DNA of 45,251 bases from Escherichia phage vB_EcoS-101114BS4. Position numbers and translations under genes: made by a program. Under the pieces are notes generated by a model. The model had not been told where the DNA came from. It did no database searches and saw only the letters and a list, made by a program, of their open reading frames with translations. Each line of letters begins with the position of its first letter. Position 1 is the stretch's first letter. The stretch lies in the sequence record NC_073061.1; one strand, 5' to 3'. Positions 1,741-44,324 of this stretch are shown in pieces.

Positions 1741-1780
1741 TTGACTTGCAACCAACATAGGGTCCATACTGCAACCAATC
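1741..1780 (+). promoter_or_regulatory. Sigma70-like promoter carrying two direct GCAACCAA motifs
   Basis: TTGACT (1741-1746), 17-18 bp spacer, CATACT; GCAACCAA at 1748 and 1771; 20 bp upstream of the ATG at 1799. Confidence 0.45.
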
Positions 1781-9970: not shown

Positions 9971-9990
9971 TTGTGTTTCCTCATTGTTGG

Positions 9991-10017
9991 TGTGCAACCA
10001 ATATAGTGCAACCAATA
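9991..10017. promoter_or_regulatory. Divergent control region with two direct TGCAACCAAT motifs
   Basis: TGCAACCAAT at 9993-10002 and 10008-10017, between the minus-strand start at 9970 and the scaffold start at 10120. Confidence 0.5.
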
Positions 10018-15266: not shown

Positions 15267-15580
15267 TTGAGGCGGCGCGACGCTTTTATGGCCCGCCGCC
15301 ACCCTCCGAAGATGTAGCCGCAAGTTTATGGGGCGCGGCCCCCGAAGATGTTTGCCCGTCTGTTGCGCTATGGCCCGACAACGCGAAGATAGTCGCAGTC
15401 TTCACAGATTGCTCTACGCAATGGCGCACCGGATTCGGTGGGGCATACGGCATCGACTACGGAGTTCTGGAGTGGCTATTTAAGATGCACGGCATCGAAA
15501 ACGAGCAACGTGCATTTAAAGATATAAAGCTAATGGAACGGATCGCGCTTGACGAAATGGCGCAACAAAACCCCGCATAA
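14904..15580 (+). CDS. Tail assembly chaperone frameshift product (lambda GT-like), made by a -1 shift near 15257..15263
   Basis: The -1 frame stays open for about 105 codons after the slippery site (KKLIEAARRFYGPPPPSEDV...QQNPA) and stops at 15578-15580. Confidence 0.65.
15257..15263 (+). other. Programmed -1 ribosomal frameshift slippery heptamer A_AAA_AAC
   Basis: aaaaaac in X_XXY_YYZ register three codons before the chaperone stop; conserved G/GT architecture of tailed phages. Confidence 0.65.
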
Positions 15581-15583
15581 TGA

Positions 15584-15750
15584 AGCGGGACAAGCGGGAC
15601 GTCCCGATCTGTCCCGTTTTGCCCCGCCCCCTGTAAAACTGCATATCTACTCACTTTCATTGCATAAACTCAAAGCGGGACAAGCGGGACGTCCCGATCT
15701 GTCCCGCCCCCTAAATATGCATACCTATTCAGATTTCGTGCATAAAACAA
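15584..15750. repeat. Two tandem units of about 90 bp, each with GCGGGACAAGCGGGAC, the palindrome CGGGACGTCCCG and TGCATA motifs
   Basis: aagcgggacaagcgggacgtcccgatctgtcccg occurs at 15584 and 15674; palindromes at 15595-15606 and 15685-15696. Confidence 0.85.
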
Positions 15751-15907
15751 ACGGGACAGAAAGCGGGACAAACAAGGGGCGGGACAAAGCGGGACAGCAC
15801 CCCGTCCCCGTCAGTGCTGCCGCGGGTTTCAGCCGATCGGGACAGGCGGGACAACTCCCAGTCTTTCAGACTAGACGGGGGTCAATGGCCCCCCTCGTCT
15901 GAGACTG
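15750..15907. repeat. Copy A of a duplicated iteron-plus-hairpin element (copy B at 43319..43527)
   Basis: Four to six GCGGGACA direct repeats followed by the imperfect long hairpin cagtctttcagactagacgggggtcaatggcccccctcgtctgagactg (15859-15907). Confidence 0.85.
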
Positions 15908-15976
15908 AATAAGGTTTGTTTGAAATTCGCTGATACAATGTCAATCGGCAACTGCATAAAAAAAGGGGACTGCATA

Positions 15977-26054: not shown

Positions 26055-26135
26055 GTTATCATCTCCTATATTTGGTTGAGTTTTAGTATTGCACCGCTCA
26101 ATCAAGAATGCAACCAATTTTAAGAGGATTCAGCT
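26055..26135. promoter_or_regulatory. Divergent control region between the lipoprotein and lateral fibre genes, with a TGCAACCAAT motif
   Basis: GCAACCAA at 26110-26117 and a degenerate copy (ttggttga) at 26073; 18 bp upstream of the ATG at 26136. Confidence 0.45.
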
Positions 26136-27668: not shown

Positions 27669-27690
27669 GGGGCCATACGGCCCCTTTTTT
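27669..27690. terminator. Terminator (bidirectional) between the fibre gene and the end of the leftward operon
   Basis: ggggcc-atac-ggcccc hairpin followed by tttttt. Confidence 0.75.
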
Positions 27691-28264
27691 AGTTTGAGTT
27701 TTCCCAGTCCATTTTGCGCCGTACTAACGGGCTTTCGTAATATTCCTTGCCCTCCACTTCCACCAGAGGCCAGTCGTTGACAATCACGTATGGTTCCGCA
27801 ATATCCTCAATCACGCCGTGTGCGCTATGTTGCCCGAACGATACGCCCACCAGGATAACACCGGCAACCCGACGGGTGAGATACTCGCGAGCGCAACGCG
27901 CCTCTACCAGTCCGCGACGGATGCCGCTGGTGGCTTTGACCTCGTAGGTCCAGACGGCATCAATCATGTGCTCACGGAAGTCGGGGCCGGACTTAACCTT
28001 GCGTTTACCGACCATGATAATATCGCCGCGGTCGATAGTATTGGCGCTAAACAGGCCGGTACGCATAAGCAAGCCTTGCGGGATACAACTACGCCCGCCT
28101 GCCTGCCCTTCAAGGTACATGCCAGCAAACATCTCGCCCAGCACACCGACAAGTCGGCTTTGCTTGCACGCGTCAGACTTTAATCGCCACTGGTCAAACT
28201 CGACGCTCGCCAACATTGCCGCTATGTGGAATTGTTTACCGGTTATTTCGTATTCGCCGTACAT
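27689..28264 (-). CDS. Hypothetical protein, possible PD-(D/E)xK-type nuclease
   Basis: 191 aa; segment GPDF...IDAVWTYEVK is compatible with a PD-(D/E)xK core but is weak evidence. Confidence 0.45.
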   Translation of the reverse strand: MYGEYEITGKQFHIAAMLASVEFDQWRLKSDACKQSRLVGVLGEMFAGMYLEGQAGGRSCIPQGLLMRTGLFSANTIDRGDIIMVGKRKVKSGPDFREHMIDAVWTYEVKATSGIRRGLVEARCAREYLTRRVAGVILVGVSFGQHSAHGVIEDIAEPYVIVNDWPLVEVEGKEYYESPLVRRKMDWENSN

Positions 28265-28306
28265 TGTGAAGCCCTCATTGCTGCGGGCCGAAGCCCGCTA
28301 TTAGAA

Positions 28307-28900
28307 TTATTTAAGTGCGCTAGTCACCAGTGTTTTTTCCATATTGCGGAAGTCTTCCGGCGTCATGAGTATTTTGGACCCATCCTCGCCAGTGAGCACT
28401 ACCATAGGCTGGACTTCTTGATCTGCCACACCGAAATTGGCAGCTTTAACCGTCTTTCCGAACGAGGCCACCGTATCCTCGGCAACGCGCATTGCACTGT
28501 TATACGCATTAATCTCGCCATCCAGGCGCACGGACAGGTCCGAAGGCTTGAACGCGCCGCCGGTCTTGATAGGCCAACCTTTGAGGCTGTCGAATTGCGC
28601 TGCCGTTGTATCGATCTGAATCTCGTCATGCACGGTCATGTAAGACTCGCCCAGCAAAGCGGAATACGCAACCAGATCAACAATATTGTCTTCCTGGTGC
28701 TTACGGTGCTGGCGCACCAGCTTCAGGCAGATCAGGAAGGTCCAGGCTTCTTGCTCGGTAAGGTCGCGACCGGTAAGCGCGTTAAACACGGCAGCGATTT
28801 GCTTCGCGCTGCGTTCTTCTTTCGCGTTGTCATAGCCGTTTTCTTTCCCGCGCTGTTCCATAGTGGTGGCGGCGTTCTTGCAGTATTCAAATGCTTTCAT
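28307..28900 (-). CDS. Hypothetical phage protein
   Basis: 197 aa with AAGGAAA RBS; the N-terminal 85 aa resemble a widespread phage family of unknown function (not verified). Confidence 0.55.
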   Translation of the reverse strand: MKAFEYCKNAATTMEQRGKENGYDNAKEERSAKQIAAVFNALTGRDLTEQEAWTFLICLKLVRQHRKHQEDNIVDLVAYSALLGESYMTVHDEIQIDTTAAQFDSLKGWPIKTGGAFKPSDLSVRLDGEINAYNSAMRVAEDTVASFGKTVKAANFGVADQEVQPMVVLTGEDGSKILMTPEDFRNMEKTLVTSALK

Positions 28901-28950
28901 GATGTTTTCCTTTTAGTGGGGGCCGGATTGCCCCGACGCGTTAACTATAG

Positions 28951-28972
28951 TGCAACCAACCTATTGGTTGCA
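28951..28972. promoter_or_regulatory. Perfect palindrome TGCAACCAA-CCTA-TTGGTTGCA (candidate operator)
   Basis: 9-bp inverted arms with a 4-bp spacer, overlapping the stop codon of the HAD gene and 50 bp upstream of the next start. Confidence 0.6.
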
Positions 28973-29431
28973 AGTAAATTTTGCTACGTTTATAGAATAA
29001 ATTTTCGGGACCAGATCGCCGCACGCGCGACGGATGGCTTCGATATTCTTCGGGCAGTCTTCAATGATGACCAGTTCGGACACGTCCGCATAGCACACCA
29101 TTTTGAACACCGCGCACGCCTTAAACTCTGGCGGCGGGGTGTCATCCAGCATGTGGCGCATAAACAACCGGCCCACCGGGAAGATCTCCAGTTGCTCGGC
29201 GGTGGTGTCCCAACATTCGCGCTGCCGGTTTGTCAGATACGCGATCTCGAAGCCTTGCTCTTTGTACATGCGCAACAGCGGCAGCATATCCATGTTAAGG
29301 TCTTCGCGTACGTGTGCTTTGTGCCACTTCGCCCAAAAGGTTGATTTGGTTTTTATGCCGGGCACCAGGTCAGCACGCGCATCACTTGAACCATTAATAA
29401 CGCCATCCAGATCACAAATCAGTAGTTTCAT
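28961..29431 (-). CDS. HAD-superfamily phosphatase, 5'(3')-deoxyribonucleotidase-like
   Basis: N-terminal HAD motif I LICDLDGVI; 156 aa. Confidence 0.55.
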   Translation of the reverse strand: MKLLICDLDGVINGSSDARADLVPGIKTKSTFWAKWHKAHVREDLNMDMLPLLRMYKEQGFEIAYLTNRQRECWDTTAEQLEIFPVGRLFMRHMLDDTPPPEFKACAVFKMVCYADVSELVIIEDCPKNIEAIRRACGDLVPKIYSINVAKFTCNQ

Positions 29432-30588: not shown

Positions 30589-30613
30589 AAAAAGGGCGTC
30601 CAACCGGACACCC
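30589..30613 (-). terminator. Internal intrinsic terminator in the leftward operon
   Basis: On the minus strand: gggugucc-gguu-ggacgccc hairpin (one G-U pair) followed by uuuuu. Confidence 0.55.
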
Positions 30614-30623
30614 TTAAGATAAT

Positions 30624-30648
30624 GCAACCAATCTAATTACGCAACCAA
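30624..30648. promoter_or_regulatory. Pair of direct GCAACCAAT motifs
   Basis: GCAACCAA at 30624 and 30641 (17-bp spacing) between the stop of gene 30650..30973 and the internal terminator. Confidence 0.5.
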
Positions 30649-30649
30649 T

Positions 30650-33525: not shown

Positions 33526-33565
33526 TTCTAAAATCCTCGATAGGGCTAACCGGCACACTATACCG

Positions 33566-33844
33566 CTACGCGACCAATTCAGCAACCAATAAATCGCAGT
33601 CGGCTATGTTGTCAATAACGCGAACGTCAGCACCGCGGCGGGCCATTCGCTCATGTTCTAGCACCTGGTGCGGCTTCGGTTTTCCGCCGGGGCGCTTCAC
33701 TTCGACGAATACTATGATGCCGTTGATGATAATAATCAGGTCGGGCGCACCTGCGCGCCCCTCCCATGCCAGTTTACGGCAGAATCCGCCGACCTCTTTC
33801 ACCCGTCGCATCAGGTGACTTTGTATCTTGCCTTCGGGTGTCAT
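33566..33844 (-). CDS. VRR-NUC domain nuclease
   Basis: APDLIIIINGIIVFVEVKRPGGK carries the PD-(D/E)xK signature in the VRR-NUC arrangement; 92 aa. Confidence 0.7.
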   Translation of the reverse strand: MTPEGKIQSHLMRRVKEVGGFCRKLAWEGRAGAPDLIIIINGIIVFVEVKRPGGKPKPHQVLEHERMARRGADVRVIDNIADCDLLVAELVA

Positions 33845-37395: not shown

Positions 37396-37419
37396 TTGGT
37401 TGCTAATTTACTTGGTTGC
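37396..37419. promoter_or_regulatory. Pair of direct TTGGTTGC motifs (reverse orientation of GCAACCAA)
   Basis: cttggttgc at 37395-37403 and 37411-37419 in the gap between genes 37430..37672 and 36553..37341. Confidence 0.5.
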
Positions 37420-37429
37420 GCCTAAGCGG

Positions 37430-39709: not shown

Positions 39710-40228
39710 TTAATCTTCTAATTCGAAATAAGTTTCGACGATTGCTTTTAATTCCTGGTGGAACTCTTCCACGTCGTCATCTTCCAGCTTGGCAACGGAT
39801 TTAATTTCGAATTCTTCCAGCAGGTCGTCAAATTCGTCGTTTGCGTCGTCGTCATCACCGCCAGCAATAATAGCGGCATACTGCTTGATTTCGTCGCGCA
39901 TCTCTTTCAGCGGATCGGCATCTTTCTTGCCTTTACCTTTCGCCGGTGCTTTCTTAGATTTCGCCGGGGCTTCTTCTTCGTCGTCCGCGTCGTCTTCTTC
40001 TACGGCTTCTTTCTTAGCCTTGCCCTTTGCTGGCGCTTTTTTGGTCTTAGCCGGTGCTTCGTCTTCAGCGTCGTCATCTTCGACTACTTCTTCTTTTGCC
40101 TTGCCCTTAGCCGGGGCTTTCTTCGCTTCCTGTTTACCAACGGCAGCGCCAGCAGTTTCATAATGCTTAGCGATGGTTTCCAGTGCTACTACGCCGCGTG
40201 TGATCAGGTTTACGATTTGCTCAAACAT
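39710..40228 (-). CDS. Lys/Ala/Glu-rich repeat protein (histone H1-like composition), first gene of the leftward operon
   Basis: ATG 40228 (MFEQIVNL) with GGAG RBS; repeats EAPAKTKKAPAKGKAKKE; the upstream in-frame ORF extension is treated as 5' leader. Confidence 0.55.
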   Translation of the reverse strand: MFEQIVNLITRGVVALETIAKHYETAGAAVGKQEAKKAPAKGKAKEEVVEDDDAEDEAPAKTKKAPAKGKAKKEAVEEDDADDEEEAPAKSKKAPAKGKGKKDADPLKEMRDEIKQYAAIIAGGDDDDANDEFDDLLEEFEIKSVAKLEDDDVEEFHQELKAIVETYFELED

Positions 40229-40424: not shown

Positions 40425-40454
40425 ATAATAGATTGGTTGCAGGTGGGGTGTCAA
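40425..40454 (-). promoter_or_regulatory. Candidate sigma70 promoter for the leftward operon
   Basis: On the minus strand: TTGACA, 18 bp spacer, TATTAT; the spacer contains TGCAACCAAT; leader of about 190 nt to the ATG at 40228. Confidence 0.5.
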
Positions 40455-40465
40455 CAACTAATTTC

Positions 40466-40524
40466 AAAAAAAAAAAAGCGCCGAGGCAAAATGCGACGGC
40501 GCTAACCAATAAGAGACAATGAGA
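40466..40524 (-). ncRNA. Candidate small RNA unit (promoter, about 60 nt, intrinsic terminator)
   Basis: Minus-strand TTGAAA-N17-AATAAT (40532-40560) followed by hairpin gcgccg...cggcgc and a U12 tract (40466-40502); the transcript would contain ugucucuuauugguua. Confidence 0.3.
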
Positions 40525-40602: not shown

Positions 40603-40633
40603 CGTTGGTCATTAACCAATAGGAGACAGAACA

Positions 40634-40963
40634 ATGCATATCAACGACGCTATCGAAATGTTAACTAAGACCGTAAGCGGTGAGACAAGCCGGTCCTGGG
40701 CTTATACCGATGCCGTTGGTGCGGCGTTATTTGAAATCGAACGCCTGCGCAGTGTCGAAAAAGAATTGCGCGCCAAGCTGGAATTACTCAACGGTACGGC
40801 AGCAAGCAAGCTGCAAAAACACAATGAAGAAATGGAAGAATACAAAAAGCAGGTTATCCGTTTACGCGACGAGGGCAAGTCCTGGGCGATGATTGCCGAG
40901 TTGACCGGAATTAATCAGAGCACCGTGCGCTCCTGGGTACGCAATAATAAAACTTCTAAGTAA
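40634..40963 (+). CDS. Putative transcriptional regulator with C-terminal HTH
   Basis: 109 aa; C-terminal SWAMIAELTGINQSTVRSWVRN is HTH-like; first gene of the rightward unit. Confidence 0.5.
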   Translation: MHINDAIEMLTKTVSGETSRSWAYTDAVGAALFEIERLRSVEKELRAKLELLNGTAASKLQKHNEEMEEYKKQVIRLRDEGKSWAMIAELTGINQSTVRSWVRNNKTSK

Positions 40964-43238: not shown

Positions 43239-43318
43239 TTTTTGCGCGCATTGGTTGCCAAATTGAGTGTTTTTAGCTGGTCGCATTGGTTGCCGTGTAG
43301 TGTAAATATAGTGAATAG

Positions 43319-43527
43319 TTATGCAGTTTTATTGCATAAAGTAAGCGGGACAAAAAGCGGGACAGACAGGGGGCGGGACAAAGCGGGACAGCACCCCTGT
43401 CCCGCCCCGGATGGCGCGGCTTGCAGGGGGGCGGGACAGGCGGGACAAACCCCAGTCTTTCAGACTAGACGGGGGTCAGTTGGCCCCCCTCGTCTGAGAC
43501 TGCATAAAATCCGGGATTGCATAATGT
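43319..43527. repeat. Copy B of the duplicated iteron-plus-hairpin element, flanked by inverted TGCATAA motifs
   Basis: Six GCGGGACA repeats (43345-43450), hairpin cagtctttcagactagacgggggtcagttggcccccctcgtctgagactg (43453-43502), ttatgcag at the left and ctgcataa at the right edge. Confidence 0.85.
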
Positions 43528-43718
43528 ACGGCAGCATGATGTGAATTGCTGTCGTCGACGAACTAGGCAACCAATGCGAGTTGCAAAATGGAGAGTGAAA
43601 AATGCAGTTTGCAGTTACAGCGGATAGGGATCGGCTTTTTCATACGCATGATTAATATTGGTTGCAATCAGCCTGGCACCTTGCTAGATTGGTTGCTCAC
43701 CAACATGAGGACTGAACA

Positions 43719-44054: not shown

Positions 44055-44324
44055 ATGAGCCGTAGGCGAGCTAAACAGCTTTCTTGGCACATTCCCCTGC
44101 ATTGCATACGAATATGGGCTAAGAACGCGATTGAGGGCGATTCCGTGTACTGGTGCTATCGCGATGACGTGAAGCCACTAACGCAGACTCGCTACTTGCA
44201 CCAGTTCGCAGCACAACATGATTTCTATGTGCGGACTTCCTTGCAACCAATGGGAATACGTATTACATTACGCCGGAAGCCCGCCGTTGAGCGGGTAGGC
44301 AAACACTGGAGACTGAGCAAATGA
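44055..44324 (+). CDS. Hypothetical protein
   Basis: 89-aa basic ORF; contains a GCAACCAA motif at 44243. Confidence 0.45.
   Translation: MSRRRAKQLSWHIPLHCIRIWAKNAIEGDSVYWCYRDDVKPLTQTRYLHQFAAQHDFYVRTSLQPMGIRITLRRKPAVERVGKHWRLSK

What the first reader, a model, noticed from the sequence alone, without database searches (positions are those of the whole stretch)
28951..28972. Perfect 9-4-9 palindrome of the recurrent motif inside the leftward operon
TGCAACCAA-CCTA-TTGGTTGCA is a perfect inverted repeat with no following U-run on either strand, so it is not a terminator. It overlaps the stop codon of the HAD gene and lies 50 bp upstream of the next start, which suggests a dimer-binding operator or internal promoter controlling the distal accessory genes.
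Basis: seen in the sequence. Interest (0 to 1): 0.55.

Follow-up and report, generated by a model that had tools for sequence, protein, structure and literature searches.

The report
Paired regulator sites on internal phage promoter
The palindrome is two back-to-back copies of a 9-10 base motif that marks nearly every promoter region of this E. coli phage (genus Dhillonvirus), and it most likely acts as an operator laid over a small internal promoter for the last two genes of the leftward gene cluster, an ordinary kind of element that nobody seems to have described for this phage group.

Summary
TGCAACCAA-CCTA-TTGGTTGCA sits at 28951-28972, the TAG stop of the HAD/PNK-phosphatase-like gene lies in its loop, and the next start codon is 50 nt further on.

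A 9-4-9 palindrome is not remarkable by chance. Its arms are what matter. (T)GCAACCAA(T) occurs 20 times in this 45 kb Dhillonvirus genome against about 1.3 expected. 16 copies lie in the 8% that is non-coding, and they keep their positions in SO-1, HK578 and a distant relative.

The palindrome block is present once in 142 GenBank genomes. One phage carries two direct copies instead, so the DNA words are kept, not an RNA hairpin.

On the coding (minus) strand the arms form the -35 (TTGCAA) and the spacer of a sigma-70-like promoter. Its -10 (TATAGT) keeps TAnnnT in all variants. A structure-conserved stem-loop, a ribosome site and gene 59 follow.

Best reading: a promoter with an embedded operator, bound by a phage regulator. 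The candidate is the only recognisable HTH protein, gp38, and this is an inference. Whether the regulator represses or activates was not shown, and no transcript start or binding was tested.

It is a new member of a known kind, of moderate interest.

The parts
28951..28959 (+). Left arm TGCAACCAA. On the coding (minus) strand it reads TTGGTTGCA and occupies about -22..-14 of the predicted promoter, 1 nt upstream of the -10.
28960..28963 (.). 4-nt loop CCTA. Positions 28961-28963 are the TAG stop (minus strand) of the HAD/PNK-phosphatase-like gene. The loop is inverted in L005/L006, which removes the stop.
28964..28972 (-). Right arm. It reads TGCAACCAA on the minus strand and encodes the last three codons (C-N-Q) of the upstream gene. 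Together with the preceding T (28973) it forms the -35-like hexamer TTGCAA (28973..28968).
28944..28949 (-). -10-like hexamer TATAGT, 18 nt downstream of TTGCAA. Relatives carry the variants TATATT and TATCTT, and all keep TAnnnT.
28919..28934 (-). Stem-loop GGGGC-N6-GCCCC, starting about 9 nt after the -10 and therefore at the predicted 5' end of the transcript. The loop varies, and the stem is kept with a G-C to A-U change in 5 of 24 unique relatives.
28307..28900 (-). Gene 59-like (DUF6378, 197 aa), the first gene downstream of the palindrome. AAGGA ribosome site, ATG at 28900.
27689..28264 (-). Gene 60-like (191 aa, unknown function). It is the last gene of the leftward cluster and the second gene that the internal promoter would serve.
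28961..29431 (-). HAD / polynucleotide-kinase-phosphatase-like gene (156 aa) whose 3' end overlaps the palindrome.
40433..40441 (-). Motif copy in the spacer of the near-consensus leftward early promoter, TTGACA-18-TATTAT (motif at -22..-15).
37396..37420 (-). Two direct motif copies flanking the -10 of TTGACC-17-TAAATT, at -21..-14 and -5..+2.
33570..33589 (+). Motif copy plus a degenerate copy (TTGGTCGC on the minus strand) upstream of a leftward TATAGT (33562..33557). It overlaps the 3' end of gene 49.
30623..30648 (+). Two motif copies (TGCAACCAA and CGCAACCAA, starts 17 bp apart) between the HNH gene and gene 55. Read leftward they precede TATCTT and a terminator-like hairpin (30594-30613).
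9993..10015 (+). Two direct copies flanking TATAGT (M1-TATAGT-M2), upstream of the scaffold and major-capsid genes. There is no usable -35.
1747..1778 (+). Two direct copies in TTGACT-18-CATACT, at -29..-22 and -6..+1, downstream of a terminator.
26109..26117 (+). Single copy 18 nt upstream of the tail-fibre gene start.
43247..43697 (.). Five motif copies bracketing the iteron-rich 'region B' downstream of the primase-helicase gene. Three have the extended form GGCAACCAATGCG (43247-, 43282-, 43566+). The other two are at 43658- and 43689-.
44242..44250 (+). Single copy inside the 3' part of gene 33; with the preceding T it gives TTGCAA-17-TACATT.
40634..40963 (+). gp38 (109 aa), the candidate motif-binding protein: a long helix followed by a C-terminal helix-turn-helix. 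It is the first gene of the rightward early operon.

Best explanation
The palindrome is a cis-regulatory DNA element: two inverted copies of the Dhillonvirus-wide word (T)GCAACCAA(T), laid over an internal sigma-70-type promoter that reads leftward into genes 59 and 60.

On the minus strand the first copy supplies the -35 (TTGCAA, about -36..-31). The second fills the spacer (about -22..-14). TATAGT is the -10. The transcript would start about 7 nt later with a 5' stem-loop, followed by the ribosome site and ATG 28900.

A phage-encoded sequence-specific DNA-binding protein recognises each 9-10-mer as a unit. The best candidate is gp38 (40634-40963), a long-helix plus C-terminal HTH protein. 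Occupying both arms would cover -36 to -14 and shut the promoter.

This would tie expression of the two distal genes to the same regulator that sits on about a dozen other promoter regions of the genome.

Shown here:
- the motif statistics;
- the intergenic and promoter-proximal placement of the copies;
- conservation across the genus;
- the sequence-level rather than structure-level constraint.

Inferred:
- that the promoter fires;
- that a protein binds;
- that the protein is gp38;
- that the effect is repression.
For: 1. Motif enrichment. GCAACCAA occurs 20 times against 1.35 expected and TGCAACCAA 11 times against 0.38. 16 of 20 copies are not fully inside coding sequence, although 92% of the genome is coding, and 2 more lie in the last codons of genes.

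2. Compact motif. The flanks outside T-GCAACCAA-T are not conserved, so this is a compact 8-10-mer.

3. Positional conservation. Every copy is kept in position in SO-1 and HK578. A distant relative (gp38 59% identical) has 9 exact copies in 6.1 kb. Eight lie in gaps between called genes and one lies at the last codons of the primase-helicase gene; the flanks have diverged.

4. Conservation of the palindrome block. It is intact in 22 of 26 unique upstream regions of gene-59 homologues (29 of 34 loci). It occurs once per genome in 142 GenBank records.

5. Promoter architecture. TTGCAA-18-TATAGT was found by the scan. The -10 variants TATATT and TATCTT keep TAnnnT. TATAGT occurs only 8 times in the genome; 5 are within 25 nt of a motif copy (2% of the genome), and each motif-associated site has a copy pointing in the gene direction.

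6. Repeated positions relative to a -10. The motif sits at about -22..-14 in five clusters, at about -6..+2 in three, and contributes TTGC to the -35 in six.

7. DNA word rather than hairpin. L013 carries TGCAACCAA-TAA-TGCAACCAA, a direct repeat.

8. Downstream stem-loop. It is kept by a compensatory change.

9. Candidate binder. gp38 is the only protein with a Pfam HTH among the 10 scanned, above cut-off for HTH_23, HTH_28 and Sigma70_r4_2. Its C-terminal 60 residues are near-invariant while its N-terminus is hypervariable. The model shows a long helix plus HTH. In L154 and L155 the motif sits between the -10 and the ribosome site of gp38's own promoter. In L154 gp38 is conserved, whereas genes 34, 33 and 32 are not.
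Against: - There is no transcript-start or binding evidence, and no transcriptome of a Dhillonvirus was found.
- The promoter match is 9/12 with an 18-nt spacer and no extended -10. Such matches occur at chance frequency in the region.
- Three of the 34 loci (L018/L168 and L167) lack the palindrome altogether and still carry gene 59. The promoter is therefore dispensable.
- No terminator separates gene 58 from gene 59, so read-through could suffice.
- HK578-type genomes have no motif in gp38's own promoter.
- gp38 could instead bind the GCGGGACA iterons of regions A and B.
- Other small proteins of unknown fold were not excluded.
- Copies also sit on promoters of late structural genes (9993, 26109), which fits a pure repressor poorly.
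Confidence: 0.6

Rival explanations
1. Positive control. The motif is a promoter-specificity element. A phage factor bound to it recruits or re-targets host RNA polymerase to promoters that have a -10 but no good -35, so the palindrome is an activator site for a middle or late promoter of genes 59 and 60 rather than a repressor operator. The factor might be gp38, whose HTH resembles sigma region 4.
For: - Several motif-associated -10 hexamers have no usable -35: 9993 M1-TATAGT-M2, 33582, 30623 and 43286.
- Copies precede late structural operons (9993, 26109).
- gp38 passes the Pfam cut-off for Sigma70_r4_2 and hits ECF-sigma models weakly.
- The motif carries TTGC, which can stand in for a -35 in either orientation.
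Against: - The motif also lies inside the spacer of near-consensus promoters that need no activator, such as TTGACA-18-TATTAT at 40433 and TTGACC-17-TAAATT at 37412.
- It also lies at -6..+2, where a bound protein should block open-complex formation.
- Its distance and orientation relative to the -10 vary, unlike MotA boxes or class II activator sites.
Confidence: 0.22
2. RNA-level element. The palindrome acts as a hairpin in the read-through mRNA, either as a processing (RNase III) site or as a 3'-end stabiliser for the gene 58 message. Alternatively it is a weak terminator for antisense plus-strand transcripts.
For: - The RNA folds into a 9-bp hairpin (whole 96-nt region at -24.5 kcal/mol, z = -2.1).
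- The plus strand is flagged as terminator-like, with tail AGTAAATTTT.
- The loop inversion in L005/L006 keeps the stem.
Against: - The arms are invariant in sequence and show no covariation.
- The arms are identical to a word used 18 more times in contexts without a hairpin.
- L013 turns the inverted repeat into a direct repeat, destroying the hairpin while keeping both words.
- There is no U-run on the sense strand.
- There is no Rfam match.
- No plus-strand promoter is evident upstream.
Confidence: 0.05
3. Recombination linker. The conserved promoter and motif cassettes mainly serve as short patches of identity at which Dhillonviruses exchange gene modules (compare the promoter-stem-loop cassettes of T4-type phages). 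Any regulatory role would be secondary.
For: - Window versus CHD5UKE2 shows 872 bp with no mismatch (27957-28828) and 4 mismatches up to 28941. Divergence is about 13% from 29006 on, so the joint falls in the palindrome/-10 block.
- Genes on either side are gained and lost: gene 58 is absent in L018 and L167, and gene 55 is absent in HK578, next to the 30623 site.
Against: - Crossovers are expected in any conserved patch, so this is a consequence of conservation, not an explanation for it.
- Only one joint was examined.
- Recombination does not explain the motif's precise placement relative to -10 hexamers, or its presence in regions with no module boundary.
Confidence: 0.1
4. The motif is the binding site of a host (enterobacterial) protein rather than a phage one.
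For: No binder was demonstrated. The palindrome core AACCAA-N4-TTG is one base away from the IHF core WATCAANNNNTTR (own knowledge).
Against: - Single copies do not fit the IHF pattern.
- From memory I could match no E. coli regulator motif (NtrC, FNR, GntR-type, LacI-type and marbox considered).
- The word is conserved in phages of E. coli, Shigella, Salmonella and Sodalis, together with an invariant phage HTH.
Confidence: 0.08

Closest known systems
Phage P1 C1 repressor and its dispersed asymmetric operators (own knowledge)
   Same: A short asymmetric word is scattered over the whole phage genome at promoters. It occurs singly or in pairs, and some pairs are in inverted orientation and so give a palindromic double operator. 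One protein controls many transcription units.
   Different: P1 is temperate and C1 maintains lysogeny; Dhillonviruses are virulent. The P1 operator is 17 bp, while this word is 8-10 bp. No homology between C1 and any protein here was tested or seen.
Global regulons of IncP plasmids (KorA and KorB operators) and the omega repressor of pSM19035, with heptads in direct or inverted arrays (own knowledge)
   Same: Small dimeric DNA-binding proteins have many copies of one operator at most promoters of a compact replicon. For omega, the repeat units work in either orientation and with variable arrangement.
   Different: These are plasmid systems rather than phage ones. The KorA and KorB operators are themselves palindromic. 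Omega is a ribbon-helix-helix protein, whereas the candidate here is a helix-turn-helix protein.
T4 middle promoters (MotA box plus -10, with AsiA) (own knowledge)
   Same: A 9-bp phage-specific word containing TGC is associated with TAnnnT -10 elements that lack a canonical -35. The candidate binder resembles sigma region 4.
   Different: The MotA box has a fixed position (about -30) and orientation. Here the position (-39 to +2) and orientation vary, and the word also lies inside strong consensus promoters. No MotA or AsiA family was hit among the 10 proteins scanned with Pfam.
Promoter-early stem-loop (PeSL) cassettes of T4-type phages (own knowledge: Arbiol et al. 2010)
   Same: A repeated cassette of a sigma-70 promoter followed by a stem-loop sits between small accessory genes and coincides with a mosaic joint.
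   Different: PeSLs have no separate operator word and are about 70 bp of overall similarity. Here only the 9-10-mer and the -10 recur, and the stem-loops differ between sites.
Classical dyad-symmetric phage operators (lambda OR/OL, P22, 434)
   Same: An inverted repeat overlapping the -35 and spacer of a promoter.
   Different: In those systems the dyad is the binding unit for a dimer. Here the half-site stands alone at most sites, and the dyad can be replaced by a direct repeat (L013).

Membership tests
Sigma-70-type promoter | -35-like and -10-like hexamers separated by 16-18 nt, with A at position 2 and T at position 6 of the -10 | tested here: met
   TTGCAA-18-TATAGT on the minus strand, 9/12. 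The frequency of such hits in the region equals the shuffle expectation, so the match alone is weak.
Sigma-70-type promoter | Conservation of the critical -10 positions (TAnnnT) in relatives despite other changes | tested here: met
   TATAGT, TATATT and TATCTT in 24 unique relatives all keep T1, A2 and T6.
Sigma-70-type promoter | A mapped transcription start 6-8 nt downstream of the -10 | not testable with these tools
   No transcriptome of a Dhillonvirus was found.
Intrinsic (rho-independent) terminator | G+C-rich stem followed directly by a U-run on the transcribed strand | tested here: not met
   The stem has 4 of 9 G-C pairs. The sense (minus) strand tail is CTATAGTTAA. Only the antisense plus strand gets a weak flag, AGTAAATTTT.
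Structured RNA element | Pairing kept through compensatory changes, or a match to a curated RNA family | tested here: not met
   The arms are invariant and show no covariation. L013 breaks the pairing but keeps the words. There are 0 Rfam hits in the window.
Dyad-symmetric operator bound by a dimer | An inverted repeat conserved as an inverted repeat | tested here: inconclusive
   The arms are perfect in 22 of 26 unique sequences, but L013 has a direct repeat and most other sites are single or direct copies with variable spacing.
Dyad-symmetric operator bound by a dimer | Demonstrated binding of a dimeric protein | not testable with these tools
   The gp38 model has a long helix compatible with a coiled-coil dimer, but no binding data exist.
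Genome-wide operator set of a single regulator (P1 C1-like or KorA-like regulon) | The same word is over-represented, confined to promoter regions and conserved in position among relatives | tested here: met
Genome-wide operator set of a single regulator (P1 C1-like or KorA-like regulon) | A cognate regulator is encoded by the element and autoregulated through the same word | tested here: inconclusive
   gp38 is the only Pfam HTH among 10 proteins scanned. Its own promoter carries the word in L154 and L155, a degenerate TTGGT-N5-ACCAA in the window and SO-1, and nothing in HK578 and CHD5UKE2.
PeSL-like mobile regulatory cassette | Promoter plus stem-loop located at mosaic joints | tested here: inconclusive
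   The promoter and stem-loop are present. One recombination joint was mapped to the block. No genus-wide breakpoint analysis was done.

The most novel reading that the evidence does not exclude
The 9-10-mer is the operator of a genus-wide regulon run by one small protein, gp38, whose HTH resembles sigma region 4. The word carries a -35-like TTGC in both orientations. The same protein could therefore mask the -35 and spacer of early promoters and stand in for a missing -35 at late ones. That would be a single-factor temporal switch for host RNA polymerase in a virulent siphophage, with the same cassettes doubling as module-exchange points.
Probability: 0.25. Interest if true: 0.6.

Novelty: new member of a known kind. 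Interest (0 to 1): 0.4.

Why it matters
Dhillonviruses (HK578-like phages) are common E. coli phages. They appear in the BASEL collection, in many defence-system studies and in therapy-oriented isolations. Even so, I found no description of their transcription programme.

A single conserved word that marks about a dozen regulatory regions gives a ready map of the transcription units. It also points to a candidate regulator that one EMSA or reporter experiment could test, and to defined insertion and control points for engineering these phages.

For the palindrome itself, the practical consequence is that genes 59 and 60 probably form a separately controlled unit at the end of the replication-gene cluster.

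Tried and rejected
- Chance palindrome: rejected because of the identity of the arms and their conservation, not because of the symmetry, since 9-bp inverted repeats are expected by chance.
- Terminator: rejected. There is no U-run on the sense strand. The only identical palindrome outside the genus (L022, a 211-kb AT-rich contig) is an ordinary terminator hairpin followed by TTTTTT and is unrelated.
- Known RNA family: no Rfam hit.
- gp38 homologues outside Dhillonvirus for a co-occurrence test: none usable in GenBank phages. The large protein database gave only Dhillonvirus-like contigs plus two more distant fragments, L154 and L155, which did carry the motif.
- Fold and sequence searches of gp38 against solved structures gave only generic small HTH domains (resolvase, DeoR, IstA, LuxR, sigma region 4), with no significant E-value.
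- Literature searches for the motif sequence, for Dhillonvirus or HK578 promoters and for transcriptomes found nothing relevant.
- Host-factor motifs recalled from memory (NtrC, sigma-54, FNR, IHF, LacI and GntR types, marbox, DnaA box) do not fit the single-copy word.
- I considered that copy orientation might follow a polar process such as replication or packaging. I dropped the idea once each 'anti-oriented' copy except the 43658/43689 pair proved to lie upstream of a -10 pointing in the gene direction, with its TTGC as the -35.
- Terminase (pac) binding was rejected because there are no copies near terS.

Full report
**What the window is.** The 45,251-bp window is a complete genome of a Dhillonvirus, an HK578-like virulent E. 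coli siphophage. The 27-31 kb region is 97.5% identical to vB_EcoS-CHD5UKE2, and it matches 159 phage records, almost all of them Escherichia or Shigella Dhillonviruses. I transferred the gene map from that relative:
- Rightward genes run from about 40.6 kb, through the window ends, to 27.66 kb. They include gp38, the primase-helicase, lysis genes, terminase, and head and tail genes.
- A leftward cluster of DNA-metabolism genes runs from about 40.4 kb down to 27.69 kb.

**The observation.** TGCAACCAA-CCTA-TTGGTTGCA is at 28951-28972, with perfect 9-nt arms and a 4-nt loop.
- It lies between two leftward genes. The upstream one (28961-29431) is HAD/PNK-phosphatase-like: PHROG 415 at 2e-36, and Pfam Acid_phosphat_B just below cut-off.
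- That gene ends ...TGC AAC CAA TAG. Its stop is in the loop and its last three codons are the right arm.
- The downstream gene (DUF6378, 28307-28900) starts 50 nt from the palindrome.
- A perfect 9-bp inverted repeat at short spacing is about what chance gives in 45 kb, and one search lists others. The symmetry alone is therefore not evidence.

**The arms are a genome-wide word.**
- TGCAACCAA occurs 11 times against 0.38 expected. The core GCAACCAA occurs 20 times against 1.35.
- Outside T-GCAACCAA-T the flanks are not conserved, so the unit is 8-10 bp.
- The genome is 92% coding, yet 16 of 20 copies are not fully inside coding sequence. Two more lie in the last codons of genes, including the right arm here.
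- The copies form about 13 clusters: 1747/1770, 9993/10007, 26109, the palindrome, 30623/30640, 33581, 37396/37412, 40433, 43251/43286, 43566, 43658/43689 and 44242, plus one copy deep in a tail gene (20653).
- Pairs are mostly direct repeats, with start-to-start spacings of 14, 16, 17, 23, 31 and 35 bp.

**Conservation.**
- Every copy is in the same place in Sodalis phage SO-1 and in HK578.
- A metagenomic fragment from a more distant relative (L154; gp38 59% identical, primase-helicase about 65-72%) has 9 exact copies in 6.1 kb. Eight lie between called genes and one at the last codons of the primase-helicase gene. The surrounding sequence and the pair spacings differ.
- For the palindrome itself I aligned the region upstream of gene-59 homologues from 34 loci, 26 of them unique.
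- 22 unique sequences (29 loci) have perfect arms.
- L005/L006 have the 4-nt loop inverted. This removes the TAG and lengthens the upstream protein by 17 residues.
- L162 has a 1-nt loop deletion and one arm substitution.
- L018/L168 and L167 have lost or replaced the upstream gene and lack the element.
- L013, whose contig length equals that of phage slur05, carries TGCAACCAA-TAA-TGCAACCAA: two direct copies in place of the inverted pair.
- The 53-nt block occurs once in each of 142 GenBank records, at 90% identity or more in 139 of them.
- The exact palindrome pattern occurs in 14 IMG/VR contigs. Thirteen are Dhillonvirus-sized. The fourteenth is an unrelated AT-rich terminator.

**DNA word, not RNA hairpin.**
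- As RNA the palindrome would fold. However, the arms never vary, so there is no covariation.
- The same word is used 18 more times without a partner.
- The L013 variant destroys the pairing while keeping both words.
- The sense strand has no U-run. The only terminator-like flag is a weak one on the antisense strand.
- Rfam finds nothing in the window.

**Promoter architecture.**
- On the minus strand the sequence reads cTTGCAACCAAtaggTTGGTTGCAcTATAGT. The scan calls this TTGCAA-18-TATAGT, 9/12.
- That match alone is no better than chance: 3 hits against 2.9 expected in 3.4 kb. Three further observations support it.
- First, the -10 keeps T1, A2 and T6 in all variants (TATAGT, TATATT, TATCTT), while the neighbouring bases change.
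- Second, TATAGT occurs only 8 times in the genome on both strands. Five of these are within 25 nt of a motif copy, a zone covering 2% of the genome. Each of the four motif-associated sites has a copy pointing in the direction of the local genes.
- Third, the same layout recurs. The motif core sits at about -22..-14, directly upstream of a -10, at 40433 (TTGACA-18-TATTAT), 37412, 30623, 9993 and the palindrome.
- It sits at about -6..+2 at 1770, 10007 and 37396.
- In six clusters its TTGC, in either orientation, forms the -35 hexamer (palindrome, 44242, 43658, 33581, 30640, 43286).
- About 9 nt after the -10 comes a stem-loop (GGGGC-N6-GCCCC, 28919-28934). Its loop varies and its stem is kept, including a G-C to A-U change in 5 of 24 unique sequences.
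- It would sit at the very 5' end of the predicted transcript. From established work on E. coli mRNA decay (own knowledge), that is the position at which such hairpins stabilise mRNA.

**Who binds.**
- Of 10 proteins scanned with Pfam, only gp38 (40634-40963) has a DNA-binding domain. It is above cut-off for HTH_23, HTH_28 and Sigma70_r4_2. PHROGs calls it 'transposase'.
- Its C-terminal 60 residues are almost invariant across homologues, while the N-terminal 45 are hypervariable. HK578-type phages carry a different, longer N-terminus with the same HTH.
- The AlphaFold model (pLDDT 86) is a long helix (21-79) followed by a C-terminal HTH. Fold search finds only generic small HTH domains, with no significant E-value.
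- In L154 and L155 the word lies between the -10 and the ribosome site of gp38's own promoter. The window and SO-1 have a degenerate TTGGT-N5-ACCAA there. HK578 and CHD5UKE2 have nothing.
- In L154, gp38, the primase-helicase, the iterons and the word are conserved, but genes 34, 33 and 32 are not.
- A second repeat family, GCGGGACA, has 14 of its 16 copies in regions A (15.6-15.9 kb) and B (43.3-43.5 kb). It needs a binder too. By analogy with P4 alpha (own knowledge) that binder may be the primase-helicase, which would leave gp38 for GCAACCAA. This step is an inference.

**Mechanism and rivals.**
- Most likely (0.6) the palindrome is an operator embedded in an internal promoter. The two arms cover -36 to -14, so a protein on them would exclude RNA polymerase and place genes 59 and 60 under the genome-wide regulator.
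- The main rival (0.22) is positive control: the bound factor substitutes for a missing -35. This fits the -35-less promoters of late genes. It does not fit the copies inside consensus promoters or those at -6..+2.
- An RNA role (0.05) and a host binder (0.08) are unlikely.
- A role as a recombination linker (0.1 as the primary function) has one supporting case. Between the window and CHD5UKE2, the switch from near-identity to 13% divergence falls exactly in this block. That is also what any conserved patch would produce.
- The element is dispensable, because L018-type genomes lack it, and no terminator precedes it. At most it adds a regulated entry point to a read-through operon.

**Comparison and novelty.**
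- In function the closest analogues are the dispersed asymmetric operators of P1 C1, the KorA/KorB and omega regulons of plasmids, T4 MotA-box promoters and T4-type promoter-stem-loop cassettes. None is a demonstrated relative.
- I found no paper describing this word, Dhillonvirus promoters beyond three consensus matches annotated in the HK578 record, or a transcriptome.
- It is therefore a new member of a known kind: a phage operator and promoter set. Its interest is moderate, because it maps the transcription units of a widely used phage genus and names a testable regulator.

**Limits.**
- Nothing here shows transcription initiation or protein binding.
- The sign of regulation and the identity of the binder are inferences.
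- Promoter positions assume a start about 7 nt after the -10.

Noticed in passing
window 15580-15920 (region A) and 43320-43510 (region B): A second repeat family: GCGGGACA has 16 copies in the genome, 14 of them in these two non-coding regions. Both regions also carry TGCATAA copies and a long GC-rich hairpin. The SO-1 GenBank record annotates both as repeat regions. This looks like an origin plus a second cis site, reminiscent of P4 ori/crr bound by its primase-helicase (own knowledge).
   Followed up: partly
L005:2932-2953 and L006:2932-2953 versus window 28951-28972: The 4-nt loop of the palindrome is inverted (CCTA instead of TAGG in the gene orientation) while the arms are unchanged. This flip removes the TAG stop and extends the HAD-like protein by 17 residues.
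   Followed up: partly
L013:2927-2947: In this relative (contig length equals that of phage slur05) the inverted pair is replaced by a direct pair, TGCAACCAA-TAA-TGCAACCAA, followed by TATATT.
   Followed up: yes
window 27957-29300: Against CHD5UKE2 there are 872 bp with no mismatch, then 4 mismatches up to 28941, then about 13% divergence from 29006. A recombination joint therefore falls inside the palindrome/-10 block.
   Followed up: partly
window 30589-30649 (minus strand): Two motif copies and a TATCTT -10 sit immediately upstream of a terminator-like hairpin (30594-30613, followed by TTTTT). A start about 7 nt after the -10 would fall inside the left arm, so transcripts from this promoter could escape a terminator that stops transcripts arriving from the HNH gene.
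   Followed up: no
window 40634-40963 (gp38) and alignment A2: The N-terminal ~45 residues are hypervariable, and HK578-type phages replace them with a longer unrelated segment. The C-terminal 60 residues (HTH) are almost invariant. GenBank records call the gene transposase, resolvase or 'nuclease inhibitor gamma'.
   Followed up: partly
window 9987-10001, 40605-40619, 43689-43703: Three TTGGT-N5-ACCAA inverted repeats lie within about 20 nt of a start codon (genes 14, 38 and 34). Two of them include a full motif copy, and the one before gp38 is a degenerate version.
   Followed up: no
window 43247-43259, 43282-43294 (minus) and 43566-43578 (plus): Three copies share the longer form GGCAACCAATGCG and bracket region B in inverted orientation.
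   Followed up: no
window 39713-40228 (minus), gene 40-like: A 172-aa protein with repeated KKAPAKGKAK stretches alternating with strongly acidic runs. No family match beyond a PHROG of unknown function.
   Followed up: no
window 40455-40470: A run of 12 A (12 T on the minus strand) lies just upstream of the -35 of the leftward early promoter, TTGACA-18-TATTAT. It could be an UP-like element.
   Followed up: no
L022:1117-1138 (IMGVR_UViG_3300028805_000041, 211 kb): The only exact copy of the palindrome pattern outside Dhillonvirus-sized contigs is an ordinary terminator hairpin followed by TTTTTT in an AT-rich genome. It is a chance match.
   Followed up: yes
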